Source: an uncultured Bdellovibrionales bacterium
GTDB taxonomy: Bacteria; Patescibacteriota; Minisyncoccia; Moranbacterales; UBA9337
Direction of reading: 5' to 3'
DNA length: 64,000 nt
Assembly (NCBI GenBank): GCA_964605525.1
Contig: CAZSCV010000002.1
Coordinates: 69,888 to 133,887, forward strand
Shown: positions 20,449 through 31,458 of the stretch, in pieces
Layout: the number at the start of each line of letters is the position of its first letter
Position numbering within the stretch: the stretch's first letter is position 1
Made by a program: the position numbers and the translations under genes
Notes under the pieces: model-generated
The model's database searches: none
Seen by the model: the letters and a program-made list of their open reading frames with translations, nothing else
Told to the model about the DNA's origin: nothing

Positions 20449-20519
20449 GGCGGGTGTCGTACAGTGGCAGTACGTTGGTCTCCAAAACCAATAACGGGAG
20501 TTCGATTCTCTCCACCCGT
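20449..20519 (+). tRNA. tRNA-Trp (anticodon CCA)
   Basis: Acceptor GCGGGTG/CACCCGT (G1.U72), D stem GTAC/GTAC, anticodon stem TTGGT/ACCAA with loop CTCCAAA, T arm GGGAGTTCGATTCTCTC. Preceded by a GTCCGCC-ctg-GCGGAC hairpin. Confidence 0.75.
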
Positions 20520-20530
20520 GCATATCAATT

Positions 20531-21601: not shown

Positions 21602-22915
21602 ATGAAAACGAAAGGGGAAAAAGATGGCTTGTTGGGAGGTGCAATGGCTTTCTATCATGATAAGGGCTTTGTTCCTGCATTTAAGCAAGCAATGCGATAT
21701 GCTGCAGGACGTGCTGGCCGAGTTGGGACTATGCTGGACTGGGTGGATGCACGATTAGCAATACCGCCGTACGAAAAACTGGGCATGCATGACACATCAA
21801 ATCCAACTCCTTGGGATCAGTACTACACAACCATGTCTGCTGAGTATGTTGGTATCAGCAAGGGTGGAACCAAAATCTTGATCGTTGCTCATGGTATCGG
21901 ACCAATGGCAACACTTGATGGTGTCGTCGAAGCATATCGATATCATTATAATGATAAGACACGCCGGACTGAGGGTGGCCGTATTTCAGTGGAGGAGTTC
22001 CGGAAGCTTGAGAGTGGCATCTATGGTGACGTGGTGATTGTCGATCTTGAAGAGTATGTATTTGAGCGTGAGTATCCGTTCATTGCAACTCTCCACTATT
22101 TTGATGCACTGGATGACTCAGTGCTTAAGGCTCGCCTTGGCTCAAGGGCTGATGAGTACATTGAGCAACATGCAAATTATGCAAGGAAATACCATCTGGA
22201 TGCTCATCAGCGTATGATTATAGATCCCTACATTATAGGGAACGAAGGACCGGGAATGTACTGGGTCAAAAATACCAAGCCCGAAGATGGTCTTGCATAT
22301 GCTCATCTTCTGAGCGTCGGTGCGATTACGAATTTACATGTCAGCCAAAGCGAGCATCGGGTCCCCAGCTGGGTGTCTGATGTGAACACACATGGTTGGT
22401 ATGACGGTACTCGCCTGATTGGTATTCCTGAGGGTAAGCTTGCATCTATCGGCAAAGGCCCTGATGCATATCGCCTGCTGCGCAAGCACTGGCAAGAGCT
22501 TTTTGAGCCGAGTGGTCTCAACCGCTCACCCGATGGGCTCTTCGTTCTGATGCAAATGCCGGACAAGACGTGGTTCACGCAGTTCCAGAAGAAGGGAGCT
22601 AGCGCTGACAGCTACGAACCGGAATTCCGTGTGACGTCGATGGAGAAGGTGGGGGAACTTGCTCGGTTTTACACCGAGTCGAACTATCCCGTCCCGATCT
22701 TCCGATACGACATCCGCGAGGCGCAGGCTGTGCTTTCCAAAGAAACCAATGCTTACGAACTCGTTGGTGATCCGACCAAGACAGGTGGTGCTGATAGTCA
22801 GGAGACCTGTCTCGTGCAGGGCTATCGCATCGAAATTGACCATACGCAACGGCTTATGCGACAAGAAGTATTGGCCAATAATTACGAAAAGATGATGCAG
22901 CTTCACGAGAAGTAA
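21602..22915 (+). CDS. hypothetical protein, compositionally foreign (about 50% GC), 437 aa
   Basis: RBS GGAAAGGAG; no recognisable domain by inspection. Confidence 0.55.
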   Translation: MKTKGEKDGLLGGAMAFYHDKGFVPAFKQAMRYAAGRAGRVGTMLDWVDARLAIPPYEKLGMHDTSNPTPWDQYYTTMSAEYVGISKGGTKILIVAHGIGPMATLDGVVEAYRYHYNDKTRRTEGGRISVEEFRKLESGIYGDVVIVDLEEYVFEREYPFIATLHYFDALDDSVLKARLGSRADEYIEQHANYARKYHLDAHQRMIIDPYIIGNEGPGMYWVKNTKPEDGLAYAHLLSVGAITNLHVSQSEHRVPSWVSDVNTHGWYDGTRLIGIPEGKLASIGKGPDAYRLLRKHWQELFEPSGLNRSPDGLFVLMQMPDKTWFTQFQKKGASADSYEPEFRVTSMEKVGELARFYTESNYPVPIFRYDIREAQAVLSKETNAYELVGDPTKTGGADSQETCLVQGYRIEIDHTQRLMRQEVLANNYEKMMQLHEK

Positions 22916-24539: not shown

Positions 24540-25958
24540 ATGGATATAAGCGAAATTAAAAAAATAATTAATAGGGCTTTCGATGCTCGTTCAGAGCTAA
24601 GCGGAATAGAATTTAAAGATGCGCGCGGTGGATTTCCAGCAGACCCAACGGCAAAAACTCTTTCTGCTTTTGGCAATACGAAAGGTGGCGTTATTGTATT
24701 TGGCGCGTTGGAACATAAAGATCGTTCTTTGGAAATTGTTGGCACGCAAAATTCTGCAGTACTACAAGAGCGTATGGCACAGTTGTCATCTGAAGGCATG
24801 AGTGAAGTATTGCGTCTGGAATATCAAATCCTTTCTATGGAAGGAAAAACAGTTTTGGCAGTAGTTGTTCCGGAATGCCGTAGTCATGTTAAGCCATATT
24901 ATGTAAAAAAATTTGGTATGGATAGAGGTGCATTTGTGCGTGACGGTATTACGGATCGTCAGATGACAGCCGAGGAAGTGCGAAGTTGCGTGCGTAATGC
25001 GCAAGTTGATGATTTTGATGGAAATTGTGCGGATAATCTAATCAAAGAAGATCTATCGATTATAAAAATTGAAAATTTTCTCAAAAAAAGTGCAAAAAAG
25101 GTTGGACGTATTTTTGATAGTGTTGACGATGTGCTTCTTAAAAATATCGGCGTGGCACGTGAATGTGGTGGTGTTTTACGCCCAACAATTGCAGGTTATC
25201 TTATTTTTGCAAATCAAAATCCGCAAAACACTCTTCAGTTTGAGCGTTATAAGATTAGATGTGTCAGATTTAAGGGATCAGGAGTAGCGAGTGATATTAT
25301 TGATAAAGCAGATATCGTTGGCACACTGGATGAACAGATTGATGTTATGGAATCTTTTGTATTACGCAATATTAAAAATAGTGCTGAAATTGTAGGCACT
25401 AAACGAGTTGAGAGATATGAATATCCGGAAAAAGCAGTTCGCGAGATTTTGGCTAATGCTGTTATTCATAGGGATTATCGTATCACAGAAACATATACGC
25501 AAGTCAATATTTTTGACGATCGTATAGAAGTATTTAATCCAGGGAACTTGCCTCCGGGTGTAACAGTGGAAAATATTAAGGATGCGCAAGAGAGTCGCAA
25601 TCGCATCATAGCAGCTCGTCTTAATGAAATGGACTATCTTGAAGAATATGGTCGTGGTATCGATATAGTTTTTACATTGATGTCAGCATGGGGATTGTTG
25701 CCGCCAATTTTCAAAAACTCATCAAATAGCTTTAAGGTTGTCCTACCAGGTGAAAGATTGAGTAAATTAAATGATCGTCAGATTAAAATTTGGCAATATT
25801 TGATGGACAACAATAGATTAAATCGTAAGGATGTTGAAAAGATATTACCAGATACCCCCGTGGAAACTATCAAATATGATTTACGAAAAATGAAGGATAT
25901 GGGTCTTATTGGCCAACGAGGCGAATCTATTAACACATATTATGAGGCAGCCTTTTAG
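24540..25958 (+). CDS. AlbA_2 (Schlafen-like) DNA-binding domain + HATPase_c_4 ATP-binding protein (putative regulator, COG2865-like)
   Basis: N-terminal IKKIINRAFDARSELSGIEFKDARGGFP...GGVIVFG AlbA_2-type; C-terminal RecG-C/HATPase_c_4-like region and winged HTH. Confidence 0.55.
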   Translation: MDISEIKKIINRAFDARSELSGIEFKDARGGFPADPTAKTLSAFGNTKGGVIVFGALEHKDRSLEIVGTQNSAVLQERMAQLSSEGMSEVLRLEYQILSMEGKTVLAVVVPECRSHVKPYYVKKFGMDRGAFVRDGITDRQMTAEEVRSCVRNAQVDDFDGNCADNLIKEDLSIIKIENFLKKSAKKVGRIFDSVDDVLLKNIGVARECGGVLRPTIAGYLIFANQNPQNTLQFERYKIRCVRFKGSGVASDIIDKADIVGTLDEQIDVMESFVLRNIKNSAEIVGTKRVERYEYPEKAVREILANAVIHRDYRITETYTQVNIFDDRIEVFNPGNLPPGVTVENIKDAQESRNRIIAARLNEMDYLEEYGRGIDIVFTLMSAWGLLPPIFKNSSNSFKVVLPGERLSKLNDRQIKIWQYLMDNNRLNRKDVEKILPDTPVETIKYDLRKMKDMGLIGQRGESINTYYEAAF

Positions 25959-25961
25959 AGG

Positions 25962-26078
25962 AATTAACCGCAATTAACCGTAATAGTAAAAAATGGCTTA
26001 GGGAGGGGGAGGGGGAGGGTGTATAATGCCTAAAGGAATTAACCGCAATTAACCGTAATAGTAAAAAATAGCTTAAAA
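25962..26078. repeat. two 41-bp direct repeats (GGAATTAACCGCAATTAACCGTAATAGTAAAAAAT.GCTTA) separated by a G-tract GGGAGGGGGAGGGGGAGGG
   Basis: Read directly: 25962-26002 and 26037-26078. Each repeat contains AATTAACCG twice. The intervening G3-5 tracts fit a G-quadruplex motif. Confidence 0.7.
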
Positions 26079-26424
26079 TAAGGATTTTAAGGGTATGGAG
26101 TTTTAGACGAAATTAGACGAATTAAACGCAATGTCGAAAAAGGCTTAAATAAAAGACTTATGATCGTGTAGCCTTTTAAATTAAAGAATCTTAAAGGAAA
26201 CATTGGAGATTGGGGAAAGGGAGAAATATGAAAAGAAGATTGGGGTGGCCAAAAAAGAGGGTCGGAAATGCCGGTCTTTTGGATATAATCGCAATCATCT
26301 GACTGGATTACAAACTGGAATTGCTGCGAAGTTGCCCTTGCGATGCTCATTTGAGAAAGTGTTGAGTAATCAGTTGCTTGATGGTATTATATAAATATAA
26401 TAACATCCCTTAATTTCAACAAAT

Positions 26425-27447
26425 ATGGAACGAAAAGACATTATTAAAAAAATTGAGACATTGCGAAGCTCAAAGGTGATAACCTACGCAACCAGTGATC
26501 GGCAAGGTCCAGTCAATGCTCGGGTGGCGATGGATATTATTCCGATTATCAGCTCGCAACTGCGAAAGATTGGGAAGCAAGAAAAGATTGATTTGGTGCT
26601 GTATAGCGCAGGAGGCGACACCATGGTGCCATGGCGCTTGGTTTCGATGATTCGCGAGTATTGCGACCAGTTTTCTGTAATAATCCCATATAAAGCCCAT
26701 AGTGCGGCCACTATGATTTCTTTGGGAGCGGATGAAATTGTGATGAGCGATATGAGCGAGCTTTCACCGATTGATCCGTCCACAGCCAATGTTTTCAATC
26801 CGATTGACCCGCAAAATCCGCAAAAACGCATCCCGATTTCCGTGGAAGAAGTGATGAGCTATTTTGATTTGGCAAAAAACAAGTTTGGAATCAAGAGCGA
26901 TGAGGAACTGACCAAGATTTTCAACAAGTTTGTGGAAAGCACACCATCCATCCATCCTTTGGCTTTGGGTAATGTTAATCGAACACACAATCTGATTAAA
27001 ATCCTAGCGAAAAGATTACTTAAGAGCCATAAGGAGTCGATGAAAGAGGATGAGGTGGAAAAAGTGATTGAATTCCTGACGGAAAAATTATATTCACATC
27101 AATACTACATTGGAAGAAAAGAAGCCAAGGAAGATCTCGGCATTAAGTCTGTGGTTTTTGCTGGCCAAGATCTTTCTGATCTGATGACGGATATTTATGA
27201 AGAGTATGAAAAGGAAATGAATATGCGAAAAATGTGGAATCCGGAGAATGAAATCGGCGGCAATGCAGAAACTAGAAAAGAATATAAAATCGCATTCGTC
27301 GAAAGCGCGGAAACGAGCAATCATTTTGGAATCAATATGGAATTTAAAAAAGTCCAACAAAACATCCCACAACAAACTCCGCAAGGAATCATTCAAATTC
27401 CACAGGAGCAAATTGTTTGGAGAATGATTGGACAGGGGTGGAAATAA
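26425..27447 (+). CDS. Clp-fold serine protease (SDH/SppA-ClpP-like)
   Basis: LVLYSAGGDTMVPWRLVSMIREYCDQFSVIIPYKAHSAATMISLGADEIVMSDMSELSPIDP resembles the ClpP/crotonase-fold catalytic core (Ser, then His/Asp). Confidence 0.45.
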   Translation: MERKDIIKKIETLRSSKVITYATSDRQGPVNARVAMDIIPIISSQLRKIGKQEKIDLVLYSAGGDTMVPWRLVSMIREYCDQFSVIIPYKAHSAATMISLGADEIVMSDMSELSPIDPSTANVFNPIDPQNPQKRIPISVEEVMSYFDLAKNKFGIKSDEELTKIFNKFVESTPSIHPLALGNVNRTHNLIKILAKRLLKSHKESMKEDEVEKVIEFLTEKLYSHQYYIGRKEAKEDLGIKSVVFAGQDLSDLMTDIYEEYEKEMNMRKMWNPENEIGGNAETRKEYKIAFVESAETSNHFGINMEFKKVQQNIPQQTPQGIIQIPQEQIVWRMIGQGWK

Positions 27448-27448
27448 A

Positions 27449-27733
27449 ATGAAAAATTTAATCAACATAGAAATCAAAGATTCATTCAACAAGAAGGATC
27501 ACTCATACAAAAAAGATGAAGATATTTCCAATCATGTCTCCACGCTAAATGATACAAAAAACATTTTGGAAACTTATTCTGCTAGTGTGGGATCGATTAC
27601 GGGACATCATTTTGATGGAAGTATAAATATTGTAAAAAATCAAGGAAAAGGAATTTGGAGAGAAATTATTATTGGAACTACCAGTGCAGTTCTTGGTGCA
27701 GTTATAAGTTATTTCATTTTTGGAATTAAGTAA
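27449..27733 (+). CDS. small protein with C-terminal TM anchor (operon partner of the protease)
   Basis: Start 2 nt after the protease stop; C-terminal IIIGTTSAVLGAVISYFIFGI helix. Confidence 0.4.
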   Translation: MKNLINIEIKDSFNKKDHSYKKDEDISNHVSTLNDTKNILETYSASVGSITGHHFDGSINIVKNQGKGIWREIIIGTTSAVLGAVISYFIFGIK

Positions 27734-27739
27734 TAAAAT

Positions 27740-28429
27740 ATGAAGAAGTATAAAATTGATATTTATGTATTGTTGCCTGCAATAGCATTCTTGGTGGGTT
27801 GGTTTTTAAAAGGGCTCATAAATTTCAATATAATCAAATTACTAAATTCAAATTTTTTTGTTGCTCTTATCACTGCAATAGTGGGCTATACTGCTATCCA
27901 TTTGTATAAAAAACAGCAAGCAGATAATAAGAAAAATGCTGCAAGACTTATCATACAGGAAATAAGATATGCGGAACAACAAATACGAAATGCAAAAATG
28001 TTGACGCCTGCAGTAGAAACCAATTATTATTTGGCATTAAAATTATTACCAACAAATAGCTGGCATAAAAACATACATTTATTTGTTGAGGATTTGCAAG
28101 AAGAAAATCAACTTGATCTCGTTAGTCAATTTTACTCCCAAGCAGCTTATCTGGATAGCGTAATTGAAATAATTTCCAACGAAAAAAACAAGACATGGAA
28201 TGTTGTAAAATCCTCACTTCTTGCAAATGAAAAAGGTCAAATGCAAATAGCAATGGGGCTTATCCTTCCCTCTGGACATAGTACATTAGACGCTTCAAAT
28301 GAAAATTTTAAAATTGAATTAAAGCTTCAGGCCAATCAAATTTTATCTGATGTTACAGGCAAAATAGAGTTTATATATAATTCTTCTGCTGTGGATAAAT
28401 TAAGATCTATTGCTAAAGGTAAGTTGTAA
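27740..28429 (+). CDS. membrane protein with two N-terminal TM helices and cytoplasmic domain
   Basis: Tightly spaced in the same operon; no family recognised. Confidence 0.45.
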   Translation: MKKYKIDIYVLLPAIAFLVGWFLKGLINFNIIKLLNSNFFVALITAIVGYTAIHLYKKQQADNKKNAARLIIQEIRYAEQQIRNAKMLTPAVETNYYLALKLLPTNSWHKNIHLFVEDLQEENQLDLVSQFYSQAAYLDSVIEIISNEKNKTWNVVKSSLLANEKGQMQIAMGLILPSGHSTLDASNENFKIELKLQANQILSDVTGKIEFIYNSSAVDKLRSIAKGKL

Positions 28430-28441
28430 AAAATATTAATT

Positions 28442-29215
28442 ATGAAAAAGGACGACCAGCGATGGACACGAGAACAGACAATAGTCGCTTTTAACTTATA
28501 TTGTAAAATCCCTTTCAATAGAGTTACTTCAAGTCACCCTGAAATAATAAAAATCGCCAAAATTATCGGTCGGAGTGTAAATTCGGTAAAAATGAAAATA
28601 GGCAATTTTGGAAGTTTTGATCCAGAGCTTAAAAAAAGAGGAATTGTTGGACTTACCAATGCAAGCAAGCTGGATGAGGTTGTTTGGAATGAATTTAATA
28701 ATAATTGGGATGATTTGGCTTTCGAAAGCGAAAAAATATTAACGAGCTTTGAGGGAGGGGACATTTTGAAAAATGCACAAGCCAGTGAAGATAATTTTTG
28801 TTTTGTGGAAGGAATTGAAAAGGAAAGATTGGTAAAGACAAGGGTAAATCAAAGCTTTTTTCGCCAGACAGTTTTATCTGCGAATAATTCATCCTGTTGT
28901 ATTACTGGAATAGATATTCCAGCACTTCTTATTGCCAGTCATATAATTCCTTGGAGCAAAGCGGCCAAAGACAGGCTAAACCCACGAAACGGATTATGTC
29001 TGAATGCCCTGCATGACAAAGCTTTCGATAAAGGACTGATGACTATTACCCCTGACTTTAAAATAAAAATATCTCCAAAAATACTCGAGAACCCGAGTGC
29101 GCCAATTGAAAAATGGATAGCCAGTTTTGAAGGTAAAAATATAATAATTCCAGAAAGATTTGTGCCAACAACTCAAATACTTGAGTATCATAATAAAAAT
29201 ATTTTTCAATTATGA
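28442..29215 (+). CDS. HNH endonuclease (HNH_2 / putative restriction endonuclease family)
   Basis: CCITGIDIPALLIASHIIPWS...NGLCLNALHDKAFDKGLMTI matches the HNH_2 core. Confidence 0.65.
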   Translation: MKKDDQRWTREQTIVAFNLYCKIPFNRVTSSHPEIIKIAKIIGRSVNSVKMKIGNFGSFDPELKKRGIVGLTNASKLDEVVWNEFNNNWDDLAFESEKILTSFEGGDILKNAQASEDNFCFVEGIEKERLVKTRVNQSFFRQTVLSANNSSCCITGIDIPALLIASHIIPWSKAAKDRLNPRNGLCLNALHDKAFDKGLMTITPDFKIKISPKILENPSAPIEKWIASFEGKNIIIPERFVPTTQILEYHNKNIFQL

Positions 29216-29713
29216 TTGCTAAAACAACATATATTCGGCCGAATATTACGATTGAATATGAGATTATCGGATCAAGAAAGTTTTACATATATAATTACAA
29301 GGGAATCCATTATAGGGTTTTTTGTTCGTTGAAAAATTTACGAAATTTTATTACAAAGGCATGCGAAACATGGATTTTTGAATGTGGCACTGAAAATGAA
29401 TTAGAAAAATATTTATACAGCCATATCCAAGCACATTAAAATCAAGAATTTTTTGGTTGCGATCGCGTTGGGCATGACACCAAATAAGAAATGGGACGGC
29501 TTCACTAAGGCGCACGGCGGCTATATTATTGTCAGGGAGGACGGGGAACTTGTTTGTTATCATCTCTATAATAGAGATGAGTTTCAAAATTATCTTTACA
29601 AGAATACCAAATTGGATACGCCAAGCACAACCAGACATAAATTCGGGAGTATTTATGAAGAAAACGGAGAGAAAAAAGTAAAATATAATCTGCAAATAAG
29701 GTTTATAAAATAG
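29212..29713 (+). pseudogene. frameshifted remnant ORFs (29212-29439 frame 1; 29453-29713 frame 2), possibly a decayed restriction endonuclease
   Basis: Two short adjacent ORFs in different frames immediately upstream of vsr. No methyltransferase present. Family not identifiable by eye. Confidence 0.3.
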
Positions 29714-29723
29714 TATTCAAATC

Positions 29724-30125
29724 ATGGCAGATATTTTTTCAAAAAATAAAAGATCCGACATAATGTCCAAAATCAAAAGTAAGGAAACGGGAATTGAAAT
29801 AAAACTGAGAAAAGAACTGTGGAAGGCGGGCTACAGATATCGGAAAAATGTATCAGGCTATTTCGGAAAGCCTGATATTTTATTAAAAAAATACAAGACG
29901 GTTATTTTCGTTGATTCCTGTTTTTGGCACGGATGTAAAAAACACGGATCAATGCCTCAAACTCGCAAGAAATTTTGGAAAGAAAAAATCGAGCGAAACA
30001 AAGAACGAGACAAAGAGGTTAATAAGTATTACAAAAAAATAGGCTGGAAGGTTATCAGAATTTGGGAGCATGATATAATAAATGGCTCATGGATAAAAGG
30101 GGTCAGGCACTTTTTTGAGAAATAA
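29724..30125 (+). CDS. vsr: very short patch repair endonuclease Vsr
   Basis: RSDIMSKIKSKETGIE...FVDSCFWHGCKKHG...GWKVIRIWEHD is canonical Vsr. Confidence 0.85.
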   Translation: MADIFSKNKRSDIMSKIKSKETGIEIKLRKELWKAGYRYRKNVSGYFGKPDILLKKYKTVIFVDSCFWHGCKKHGSMPQTRKKFWKEKIERNKERDKEVNKYYKKIGWKVIRIWEHDIINGSWIKGVRHFFEK

Positions 30126-30534: not shown

Positions 30535-30562
30535 TTGACAAAAGCGTGAAAAAGAGTATAAT
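30535..30562 (+). promoter_or_regulatory. consensus sigma70 promoter TTGACA-16-TATAAT for fic, overlapped by direct repeat CAAAAGCGTGAAAA (x2)
   Basis: Perfect hexamers. The 14-nt motif occurs at 30489-30502 and within the spacer at 30539-30552. Confidence 0.65.
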
Positions 30563-30570
30563 ATTAACAT

Positions 30571-31458
30571 ATGGTTAAAATACTAAATGTCTACAATAAA
30601 ATAAGTTTTCTGCGCGAGCGATACTATGAGGCATCTGCCGATAAAGATGCGCTTATTAAGCTTATTGCTGAAGCTGAAGTGGCTGAACAGGTGTATAACT
30701 CCAATGCCATCGAAAACAGCACTCTTTCACTTGAAGAAACGGAAAAAATACTTTTACAGATTGATCTGGATAGATATATTTCTGAGCGAGAAATTTTTGA
30801 AGCCAAAAATTTGGCACGAGTTGTGTCATACATTGATAAAAAATCTAAAGAGCAAGAACTCACTCTTGAGGTAATTTTGTCATTGCATAAAATGCTAATC
30901 TCCAATATTCGCGATGACATTGCTGGCAGATTCAGAAAAGATAATGAATTTGTGCGAGTTGGAAATCACATTGCGCCTAATCCAAAAGAAGTGGTTGAAC
31001 GATTAGAAAAAATGCTGGCTGAATATAATGCTTCAAGTCACGAAAATATTATAAAGCGTATTGCAAAACTGCATTTGACTTTTGAATATGCTCATCCATT
31101 TTGTGATGGCAATGGACGCATTGGGCGAGTTATTAATAATTATCTGTTAATGCGAGAGGGGTTCGTGCCGATAAATATAAAATTTATTGATCGCAAAAAA
31201 TATTATGAAGCGTTTCGAGAATTTGATGCAAATGGATCGACTGCTATTATGGAGGAAATAGTTGGCAAAGCTTTGACTAATAGTTATCATAAGCGGTTGG
31301 CATATTTGGAAGGCAAAAAAATAATTACCTTGGTTGAATATGCAAAAAACAATAAGCTTTCACATTCTAATATGATAAATAAGGCTAGTAGACAAACTAT
31401 TGAGGCTTTTTTGGAAAAGAATGTTTGGAAAATTGGGATCAATAATGATACAAAATAA
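30571..31458 (+). CDS. fic: Fic/Doc family protein (AMPylation-type toxin-like)
   Basis: Fic motif HPFCDGNGRIGR. Confidence 0.85.
   Translation: MVKILNVYNKISFLRERYYEASADKDALIKLIAEAEVAEQVYNSNAIENSTLSLEETEKILLQIDLDRYISEREIFEAKNLARVVSYIDKKSKEQELTLEVILSLHKMLISNIRDDIAGRFRKDNEFVRVGNHIAPNPKEVVERLEKMLAEYNASSHENIIKRIAKLHLTFEYAHPFCDGNGRIGRVINNYLLMREGFVPINIKFIDRKKYYEAFREFDANGSTAIMEEIVGKALTNSYHKRLAYLEGKKIITLVEYAKNNKLSHSNMINKASRQTIEAFLEKNVWKIGINNDTK

What the first reader, a model, noticed from the sequence alone, without database searches (positions are those of the whole stretch)
26425..29215. Tight four-gene operon (Clp-fold serine protease, small TM protein, two-TM protein, HNH nuclease): candidate uncharacterised defense or abortive-infection module
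The gene spacings are 1, 6 and 12 nt, so co-transcription is likely. It combines a ClpP/SDH-like serine protease, two membrane proteins with no recognisable family, and an HNH_2-type nuclease. The locus sits inside a defense island next to a Schlafen-like ATPase and a decayed R-M system. I do not recognise this protease-membrane-nuclease combination as one of the named defense systems.
Basis: inference. Interest (0 to 1): 0.7.

Follow-up and report, generated by a model that had tools for sequence, protein, structure and literature searches.

The report
Protease–membrane module beside separate nuclease
The four tightly packed genes are two independent mobile units: an uncharacterised protease-plus-membrane-protein module that often sits next to restriction systems in tiny uncultured bacteria, and a separate restriction-type nuclease cassette that overwrote an older restriction system.

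Summary
All four ORFs, their spacings (1, 6 and 12 nt) and their domain calls are correct. They are not one conserved system.

Unit A is g1-g2-g3 (26425-28429): an SDH-type ClpP-fold serine protease, a tail-anchored 94-aa protein, and a membrane protein of an undescribed family ("G3").

Across 95 non-redundant G3 loci, none has an HNH_2 homologue. In 70 of 85 informative loci, G3 lies next to a peptidase. Four unrelated peptidase families fill this role: SDH, proteasome-like, ClpP and trypsin-like.

SDH/proteasome-like + G3 pairs have restriction genes within two genes in 19 of 41 loci. The figure is 1 of 15 for the ClpP and DUF3892 variants. Two pairs sit inside type I R-M operons.

Unit B is g4-g5 (28442-29439), an HNH_2 endonuclease plus a 75-aa partner. 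This cassette occurs elsewhere without Unit A. Here it has replaced M.HpaII and the 5' part of R.HpaII, leaving an R.HpaII stub and vsr. DNA homology blocks break exactly between g3 and g4.

Best reading: Unit A is a candidate protease-gated membrane defence module. It is the same kind of system as DefenseFinder's "HP + SDH_sah". The mechanism is inferred, not shown.

The parts
26425..27447 (+). g1: cytoplasmic SDH-type ClpP-fold serine protease (Unit A)
27449..27733 (+). g2: 94-aa tail-anchored small protein that travels with g1 (Unit A)
   Evidence: No family hit. One TM segment at 72-93. Homologues sit directly after g1 in L033/L035 (48% identity), L124 (91%), L126 and L109, including loci that lack g3.
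27740..28429 (+). g3: membrane protein of an undescribed family ('G3'). It has a conserved TM helix, a cytoplasmic helical core, a hypervariable linker and a conserved C-terminal segment (Unit A)
28430..28441 (.). Junction between the two independently inherited blocks
   Evidence: blastn: homology to L035 (g1-g2-g3) ends at 28405. Homology to L115 and L119 (HNH_2 cassette) starts at 28427 and 28441.
28442..29215 (+). g4: HNH_2 restriction-type endonuclease (Unit B, not part of the protease module)
   Evidence: PF13391 E 4.3e-14. PADLOC 'HNH' PDLC04132 E 3.5e-94, full length. More than 7800 homologues, several named 'putative restriction endonuclease'. Found without g1-g3 in L115-L121.
29212..29439 (+). 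g5: 75-aa ORF overlapping g4 by 4 nt; conserved partner of HNH_2 (Unit B)
   Evidence: A 66%-identical 76-aa ORF follows HNH_2 in L119-L121. The window and L119 share DNA homology across HNH_2 + g5. No family hit.
29453..29713 (+). Remnant of an HpaII-type restriction endonuclease gene (last 86 codons)
   Evidence: PF09561 positions 276-359 of 359, E 3.9e-37. 99% identical to residues 281-366 of the intact 366-aa R.HpaII of L124.
29724..30125 (+). vsr: very-short-patch repair endonuclease, survivor of the former M.HpaII-R.HpaII-Vsr system
   Evidence: PF03852 E 1.3e-29. 91% identical to the L124 Vsr, which follows an intact C5 methylase and R.HpaII.

Best explanation
SHOWN. The four genes belong to two separately inherited units placed head to tail.

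Unit A (g1-g2-g3) is a protease-centred membrane module. g1 is a soluble ClpP-fold, SDH-type serine protease with no AAA+ partner in the operon. g2 is a tail-anchored protein with a polar N-terminal part. g3 anchors a conserved helical domain to the membrane. By the positive-inside rule, both the g2 N-terminal part and the g3 helical domain face the cytoplasm. Within the g3 domain, a Q/P/S-rich linker of very variable length separates the core from a conserved C-terminal segment.

The G3 family is encoded next to peptidases of four unrelated families. The link is therefore proteolysis itself, not one particular enzyme. The SDH and proteasome-like versions travel with restriction systems of types I-IV.

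INFERRED. Unit A is a stand-alone anti-phage or abortive-infection-type module. The protease cuts exposed, disordered segments of its membrane-tethered partners (the g3 linker, possibly the g2 N-terminal part). Cleavage frees the g3 TM/helical core from its C-terminal clamp, and the core then damages the membrane. The trigger is unknown.

Unit B (g4-g5) is a solitary HNH_2 restriction-type nuclease with a small partner. It replaced the methylase and the 5' part of the endonuclease of an HpaII-type system. It acts independently of Unit A, even if the two are co-transcribed here.
For: Two units:
- 0 of 95 non-redundant G3 loci carry an HNH_2 homologue within 6-7 kb.
- blastn block boundaries fall in the g3/g4 spacer.
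- L124 (g1 89% and g2 91% identical) has g1-g2-DUF6941-X218-RadC-M.HpaII-R.HpaII-Vsr and no HNH_2.
- L115 has HNH_2-HpaII-like-Vsr and L119 has HNH_2-g5, both without the protease.
- L035 shares g1-g2-g3 as one block, followed by a type III R-M.

Proteolysis link:
- G3 is adjacent to an SDH protease in 48 loci, a proteasome-like protein in 16, ClpP in 5 and Trypsin_2 in 1, out of 85 informative loci.
- The g1 fold is closest to ClpP, NfeD 1510-N and SppA. 1510-N is a protease that cleaves its operon-encoded membrane partner (PMC3795559).

Architecture: core length is fixed at 82-89 aa, the linker is 20-84 aa, and the C-terminal segment is 27-32 aa. The model has pLDDT 87.5.

Defence context:
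- R-M or type IV genes lie within two genes in 19 of 41 SDH/proteasome-like loci, against 1 of 15 ClpP/DUF3892 loci (Fisher p = 0.01).
- Pairs are embedded between hsdM and hsdS in L016 and L026.
- Among 209 nearest neighbours there are 21 DNA methylases, at least 5 GmrSD and 3 type II endonucleases.
- A HEPN gene is inserted in the L068 module.
- Serine recombinases flank several loci.
- DefenseFinder lists a system named FS_HP_SDH_sah with an SDH_sah component (name seen in PMC13532340). That it is a two-gene, phage-tested system is from my memory.
Against: - No experiment and no direct evidence of cleavage, toxicity or phage protection.
- PADLOC has no model matching g1-g3.
- About half of the SDH + G3 loci have no recognisable defence neighbour, and some sit among ribosomal, rpoC or ftsK genes.
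- The G3 + ClpP and G3 + DUF3892 variants look housekeeping.
- G3 is absent from phage, plasmid and IMG/VR collections, so there is no evidence from mobile elements.
- The direction of regulation (activation or degradation) is not constrained by the data.
- The g3 fold search gives only generic helical bundles.
- R-M genes are generally common in CPR genomes, and the internal control is small (15 loci).
Confidence: 0.5

Rival explanations
1. One reading: all four genes form one protease-membrane-nuclease defence system, with the HNH nuclease as effector.
For: Spacings are 1, 6 and 12 nt and there is no intergenic terminator-like site. In 8 other loci a restriction gene follows the module on the same strand with a gap of -16 to 32 nt. 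The module may therefore cooperate with whichever nuclease follows it.
Against: No HNH_2 homologue occurs in any of 95 G3 loci or in 4 further g1 contexts. Recombination block boundaries fall between g3 and g4. HNH_2 keeps its own partners (g5, HpaII-like, Vsr) without the protease. The downstream restriction genes elsewhere belong to unrelated types (I, II, III).
Confidence: 0.06
2. A housekeeping membrane-proteostasis pair. G3 is a membrane scaffold or adaptor that tethers or regulates a self-compartmentalising protease, as stomatin does with NfeD or HflK/C with FtsH. It has no role in defence.
Against: The family is sporadic: only 28 loci in a pattern-based scan (a lower bound) of 185,579 species genomes. 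It is inherited block-wise at 73-84% DNA identity in different contexts. g3 is swapped for unrelated genes in a relative whose g1 is 89% identical. R-M adjacency is 46% against 7%. It is embedded in type I R-M operons and has a HEPN insertion in one locus. No SPFH domain was detected.
Confidence: 0.2
3. Toxin-antitoxin polarity. g3 (and the other variable partners) are toxins that the protease continuously degrades. Infection or loss of the locus stops the protease supply and the toxin accumulates.
For: The data are the same as for the best explanation. One conserved protease pairs with many unrelated downstream partners. A HEPN toxin-type domain occurs in L068. The protease gene comes first in the operon.
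Against: Nothing distinguishes this from activation by cleavage. The conserved C-terminal segment packed on the core looks more like an autoinhibitory clamp than a degron. This is an inference only.
Confidence: 0.14
4. An accessory to restriction systems. The protease controls restriction-enzyme levels (restriction alleviation or establishment control), as ClpXP does for HsdR in E. coli (from my own knowledge).
For: The module sits immediately upstream of, or inside, R-M operons of types I, II and III.
Against: The adjacent restriction enzymes are unrelated to each other, while g1 is at least 72% identical across all of the 120 best-scoring hits listed. More than half of the loci have no R-M gene. 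The model leaves the membrane partners unexplained.
Confidence: 0.08

Closest known systems
DefenseFinder system 'FS_HP_SDH_sah' (hypothetical protein + SDH_sah protease; Fillol-Salom et al. 2022, Cell 185:3248, recalled from memory; the name is confirmed in PMC13532340)
   Same: It is built around a PF01972 SDH-family ClpP-fold protease with an adjacent uncharacterised protein. It is found in defence or accessory positions. SDH-like proteases also occur as morons in Shewanella and Porphyromonas phages.
   Different: [quoted passage not shown] This module is centred on CPR/Patescibacteria and is chromosomal, not on a PICI. It has a variable third component.
NfeD (STOPP, PH1510) / stomatin (PH1511) operon
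   Different: g1 has no TM segments and no OB-fold C-domain. g3 has no SPFH/Band_7 domain. The stomatin operon is widespread housekeeping, whereas this module is sporadic and R-M-associated.
Bacterial gasdermin + associated protease systems (from my own knowledge)
   Same: The logic is the same: a membrane-acting effector is held inactive by a C-terminal segment and is paired in different genomes with proteases of different families.
   Different: There is no gasdermin fold. g3 is already membrane-inserted through a TM helix. Cleavage and pore formation are not shown.
Solitary HNH_2 'putative restriction endonucleases' (PF13391; PADLOC HNH PDLC04132), which applies to g4 only
   Same: Full-length match with E 3.5e-94 and 60-98% identity to hundreds of 254-257-aa proteins.
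   Different: There is no cognate methyltransferase in the window. It occupies the place of M.HpaII. Its specificity (modification-dependent or not) is unknown.

Membership tests
SDH_protease (PF01972 / NCBIfam NF047768 Clp_like_SDH) | Score above the curated cut-off of the family model | tested here: inconclusive
   Pfam gives 55 bits against a cut-off of 31.3, which is met, but only for residues 1-123 on profile positions 35-162 of 286. The NCBIfam equivalog gives 61.7 bits against 250, which is not met. g1 is therefore a divergent subfamily of the SDH superfamily, not the equivalog.
SDH_protease / ClpP-fold peptidases | ClpP/crotonase fold | tested here: met
SDH_protease / ClpP-fold peptidases | Catalytic serine (with a Lys or His partner) at the canonical position | tested here: inconclusive
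   S93 in K90-A-H92-S93-A-A-T and S61-x-G63-G64-D65 are invariant in 48 homologues. No residue-level superposition on a solved active site was done.
DefenseFinder FS_HP_SDH_sah | Match to the system's two HMMs (HP and SDH_sah) and the two-gene arrangement | not testable with these tools
   DefenseFinder models are not among the libraries and the describing paper is not held. Only the family-level resemblance (PF01972) is established.
Any PADLOC-DB v2 defence system (for g1-g3) | Match to a PADLOC protein model | tested here: not met
   No PADLOC hit for g1, g2 or g3 at E up to 0.01.
NfeD-stomatin pair | Partner carries an SPFH/Band_7 domain; the protease is membrane-bound with a C-terminal OB-fold | tested here: not met
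Type II R-M system (for g4) | Cognate DNA methyltransferase encoded alongside the endonuclease | tested here: not met
   No methyltransferase lies between 23 and 32 kb. The close relative L124 has the C5 methylase at the position that HNH_2 occupies here.
HNH_2 endonucleases (PF13391) | HNH_2 domain above the gathering score | tested here: met
   52.6 bits against a cut-off of 21. PADLOC HNH model 313 bits, full length.
HpaII R-M-Vsr system | Intact M.HpaII-type C5 methylase, a roughly 360-aa R.HpaII and Vsr | tested here: not met
Only profile positions 276-359 of RE_HpaII remain and there is no methylase. Vsr is intact.

The most novel reading that the evidence does not exclude
G3 is the founding member of a new class of protease-gated membrane effectors. 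It works like a gasdermin in logic but is unrelated in fold and already membrane-inserted. It can be coupled to any of four peptidase families. Together with the highly conserved SDH protease and its interchangeable partners (g2, DUF6941, HEPN, several orphan proteins), it forms a previously unrecognised abortive-infection family. That family is concentrated in CPR/Patescibacteria and is physically coupled to restriction systems as a second line of defence.
Probability: 0.3. Interest if true: 0.75.

Novelty: new variant of a known kind. Interest (0 to 1): 0.5.

Why it matters
Very few defence systems are known in CPR/Patescibacteria, which are obligate epibionts with tiny genomes. Metagenomic selections have shown that their defence genes can work in E. 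coli (PMC12366544).

This work defines a compact module of 2-3 genes with clear boundaries. It has a very conserved protease (at least 72% identity across all of the 120 best-scoring hits listed) and interchangeable partners, which makes it directly testable.

If G3 is a cleavage-activated membrane effector, it would add an independent example of protease-gated cell suicide. It would also explain why a protease gene is repeatedly wedged into type I and type III restriction operons.

The negative result also matters. Tight spacing alone wrongly suggested a four-component system. Block-level comparison shows a nuclease cassette that overwrote a methylase and was then juxtaposed with the module.

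Tried and rejected
- PADLOC, PHROGs and NCBIfam gave nothing for g2, g3 and g5. Pfam gave nothing for g2 and g5, and only one sub-threshold hit for g3 (Halogen_Hydrol, E 0.0084, 16.5 bits against a cut-off of 29.8).
- tblastn of g3 against phage and plasmid collections, and the IMG/VR scan, found no relative, so the module is not demonstrably phage- or plasmid-borne.
- I looked for G3 fused to a protease: none among the best 150 of 617 clusters, all 73-256 aa.
- PDB sequence searches for g1 and for the proteasome-like partner found nothing at E up to 1.
- Literature: the PF01972, SDH protease and DUF6941 searches gave nothing relevant. The 'Tai' PICI defence paper proved unrelated, with no protease. 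The Fillol-Salom 2022 paper is not held. The Patescibacteria defences LdgA and Dallas in PMC12366544 are described without domains, so no comparison was possible.
- I considered whether the phage SDH-protease neighbours resemble g3. The Shewanella phage p16 has an N-terminal hydrophobic segment but no visible sequence resemblance to g3 by eye, and no alignment was run. I did not pursue it.
- Promoter and terminator scans are uninformative in this AT-rich DNA.
Full report
**1. What is in the window**

The four ORFs exist exactly where stated: g1 26425-27447, g2 27449-27733, g3 27740-28429 and g4 28442-29215. All are on the + strand, with spacers of 1, 6 and 12 nt.

- g1 matches PF01972 SDH_protease over its first 123 residues (E 8.5e-15).
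- g4 matches PF13391 HNH_2, and matches a PADLOC 'HNH' model over its full length (E 3.5e-94).
- g2 and g3 match no Pfam, NCBIfam, PHROG or PADLOC family at a significant level.

A fifth ORF, g5 (29212-29439, 75 aa), overlaps g4 by 4 nt. After it come the last 86 codons of an HpaII-type endonuclease (29453-29713), an intact vsr (29724-30125) and a Fic gene. Upstream lie a SLFN_AlbA_2/HATPase_c_4 protein and a NUDIX protein.

The window comes from a Parcubacteria-group (CPR) metagenome-assembled genome. The island begins after tRNA-Trp at 20450-20521.

**2. Is the four-gene arrangement conserved? No.**

I used g3 as the probe, because it had no family. It has 191 homologues, mostly in Patescibacteria. 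A profile search finds 617 clusters at 50% identity, and the best 150 listed are stand-alone proteins of 73-256 aa.

Scans of 185,579 species genomes and of JGI metagenomes returned 108 loci. Together with three found by exact-protein look-up (L032-L034), these make 95 non-redundant loci. The results were:

| What lies next to g3 | Non-redundant loci |
|---|---|
| HNH_2 homologue within 6-7 kb | 0 |
| g1-type SDH protease directly upstream | 48 (5 with an extra gene in between) |
| 308-aa proteasome-beta-like protein upstream (PF00227, N-terminal M-S-L...AADSR) | 16 |
| Canonical ClpP (PF00574) directly downstream | 5 |
| Trypsin_2 protease upstream | 1 |
| DUF3892-like protein downstream | 11 |
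| None of these | 4 |
| Too short to judge | 10 |

So 70 of 85 informative loci pair G3 with a peptidase, drawn from four unrelated families.

**3. Block structure of the window**

blastn against related loci gives clean boundaries:

- Window 26424-28405 aligns with L035 (73% identity) as one g1-g2-g3 block. In L035 this block is followed by a type III R-M.
- Window 26424-27738 (g1 + g2) and 29436-30076 (R.HpaII 3' end + vsr) align with L124 (84% and 90%).
- Between those two anchors, L124 carries DUF6941, an unrelated 218-aa protein, RadC, a C5 methylase and an intact 366-aa R.HpaII.
- Window 28441-29412 (g4 + g5) aligns with L119 (81%), where HNH_2 + a 76-aa ORF stand alone next to RadC.
- L115 has HNH_2-HpaII-like-Vsr with no protease.

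The junction therefore falls in the 12-nt g3/g4 spacer. g4-g5 is a separate cassette that has taken the place of M.HpaII and the 5' part of R.HpaII. g4 belongs with the 'decayed R-M', not with the protease.

**4. Grammar of the protease module**

g1 is far more abundant than g3. It has 2194 homologues, and all of the 120 best-scoring hits listed are at least 72% identical.

Sampling g1 contexts directly shows other partners, none of which matches the G3 profile:

- g1-g2-(231 aa)-(175-aa TM protein)-type III R-M
- g1-(242 aa)-type III R-M
- g1-(166 aa)
- g1-g2-DUF6941-(218 aa)

g2 therefore travels with g1, and the third position is interchangeable. Conversely, G3 accepts different proteases. 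One locus (L068) has a Cthe_2314-like HEPN gene inserted between the proteasome-like gene and g3.

**5. Structures**

Across 114 homologues:

- the TM segment (residues 38-60) and core (61-148) are conserved, and the core has a fixed length of 82-89 aa;
- the linker (149-200) ranges from 20 to 84 aa and is rich in Q, P and S;
- the C-terminal segment (201-229) is conserved and has a fixed length.

The lysine-rich stretch just after the TM helix places the domain in the cytoplasm, where g1 is (g1 has no signal peptide or TM segment). g2 is tail-anchored, with a TM segment at 72-93 and a polar N-terminal part that by the same reasoning is cytoplasmic.

**6. Context**

Among 209 genes lying within two positions of the modules there are:

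- 14 N6_N4 methylases, 5 EcoRI-type methylases and 2 HsdM;
- 2 HsdS;
- at least 5 GmrSD;
- ApaLI, MvaI/BcnI and MjaI endonucleases;
- RloB and AAA_21.

Per-locus labelling gives R-M or type IV genes within two genes as follows:

| Module type | Loci with R-M or type IV gene nearby |
|---|---|
| SDH + G3 | 12 of 29 |
| Proteasome-like + G3 | 7 of 12 |
| ClpP + G3 | 0 of 5 |
| DUF3892 + G3 | 1 of 10 |

Pooling the first two rows against the last two gives Fisher p = 0.01.

Two pairs, each with a different protease, sit between hsdM and hsdS (L016 and L026). In 8 loci a restriction gene follows g3 on the same strand with a gap of -16 to 32 nt. Serine recombinases flank several loci.

Against this, several loci lie among housekeeping genes. 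G3 was also not found in phage, plasmid or IMG/VR collections.

**7. Interpretation**

Shown:
- There are two units.
- There is a robust genomic link between G3 and peptidases.
- The SDH and proteasome-like versions associate with restriction systems.

Inferred: Unit A is a defence module in which an ATP-independent protease cleaves disordered segments of its membrane-tethered partners. This switches g3 into a membrane-damaging state.

The best-documented mechanistic analogue is NfeD 1510-N, which cleaves its operon partner stomatin (PMC3795559). The closest named defence system is DefenseFinder's FS_HP_SDH_sah (name seen in PMC13532340). The describing paper was not available, so membership is untested.

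The rivals cannot be excluded without experiments. They are a housekeeping scaffold-protease pair, a protease acting as antitoxin, and a regulator of restriction.

**8. Verdict**

The four-gene-system interpretation is not. A smaller, conserved and still uncharacterised module of 2-3 genes emerges. It is a new variant of protease-containing defence-island modules and is of moderate interest. Patescibacterial defence genes have been shown to work in E. coli (PMC12366544), so it is testable.

Noticed in passing
window 28442-29713; compare L124 10106-12071, L115 5001-6502, L119 5001-6164: The HNH_2 + g5 cassette sits exactly where a close relative has M.HpaII (a C5 methylase) and the first 280 codons of R.HpaII. 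The same HNH_2-g5-R.HpaII-stub arrangement recurs in L119. A nuclease that replaces a methylase suggests incompatibility with m5C, which would fit a modification-dependent enzyme, or a homing-like spread.
   Followed up: partly
P0207; L117 3104-6481: One HNH_2 homologue is fused to a Vsr domain. Another lies between an Eco29kI R-M (C5 methylase) and an HhH-GPD glycosylase. This HNH_2 family is repeatedly linked to the m5C / T:G-mismatch repair context.
   Followed up: no
L068 179-2306: A proteasome-like gene, a Cthe_2314-like HEPN gene (E 1e-11) and g3 lie in a row. A toxin-type RNase domain has been inserted into the module.
   Followed up: partly
L124 8301-8696, L125, L099 1589-1972, L046 4524-4913: DUF6941 (PF22091) recurs as an optional component inside or next to the protease module. 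It appears both with and without g3. No literature on it was found.
   Followed up: partly
L126 7553-11017; L132 6763-11026: The type III R-M operons that follow the protease module carry an extra gene between mod and res: RhuM in L126 and a NYN nuclease in L132.
   Followed up: no
window 25956-26148: A 45-nt direct repeat occurs three times at 73-75-nt spacing in the gap between the SLFN-like gene and g1. Two copies are 96% identical over the 45 nt (sharing an exact 33-nt core) and the third is 62% identical. No further copies exist in the window.
   Followed up: partly
window 21602-22915: A 437-aa ORF has about 50% GC against a background of about 36%. It lies about 1.1 kb downstream of tRNA-Trp (20450-20521). 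It has no NCBIfam or PADLOC match and is probably foreign DNA at the island edge.
   Followed up: no
window 30535-31458: The Fic gene matches PADLOC candidate PDC-S04 (E 4e-34) and SoFic (E 3e-26). It is preceded by a perfect 12/12 sigma-70-like promoter match at 30535-30562, so it is probably its own transcription unit and another defence candidate.
   Followed up: partly
P0331: The g1 protease is unusually conserved: all of the 120 best-scoring hits listed are 72-92% identical, spanning several CPR lineages. One 79%-identical copy is labelled as coming from a Promethearchaeota archaeon MAG. That suggests recent wide horizontal transfer, or a binning artefact.
   Followed up: no
L122 2923-4432 (Shewanella Mu-like phage); L123 2457-3684 (Porphyromonas prophages): Distant SDH-type proteases sit in moron-like positions of phages. 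In the Shewanella phage the gene lies between the late regulator and the lysis genes. In the Porphyromonas prophages it lies beside HicAB. In the Shewanella phage it is followed by a protein with an N-terminal hydrophobic segment.
   Followed up: partly
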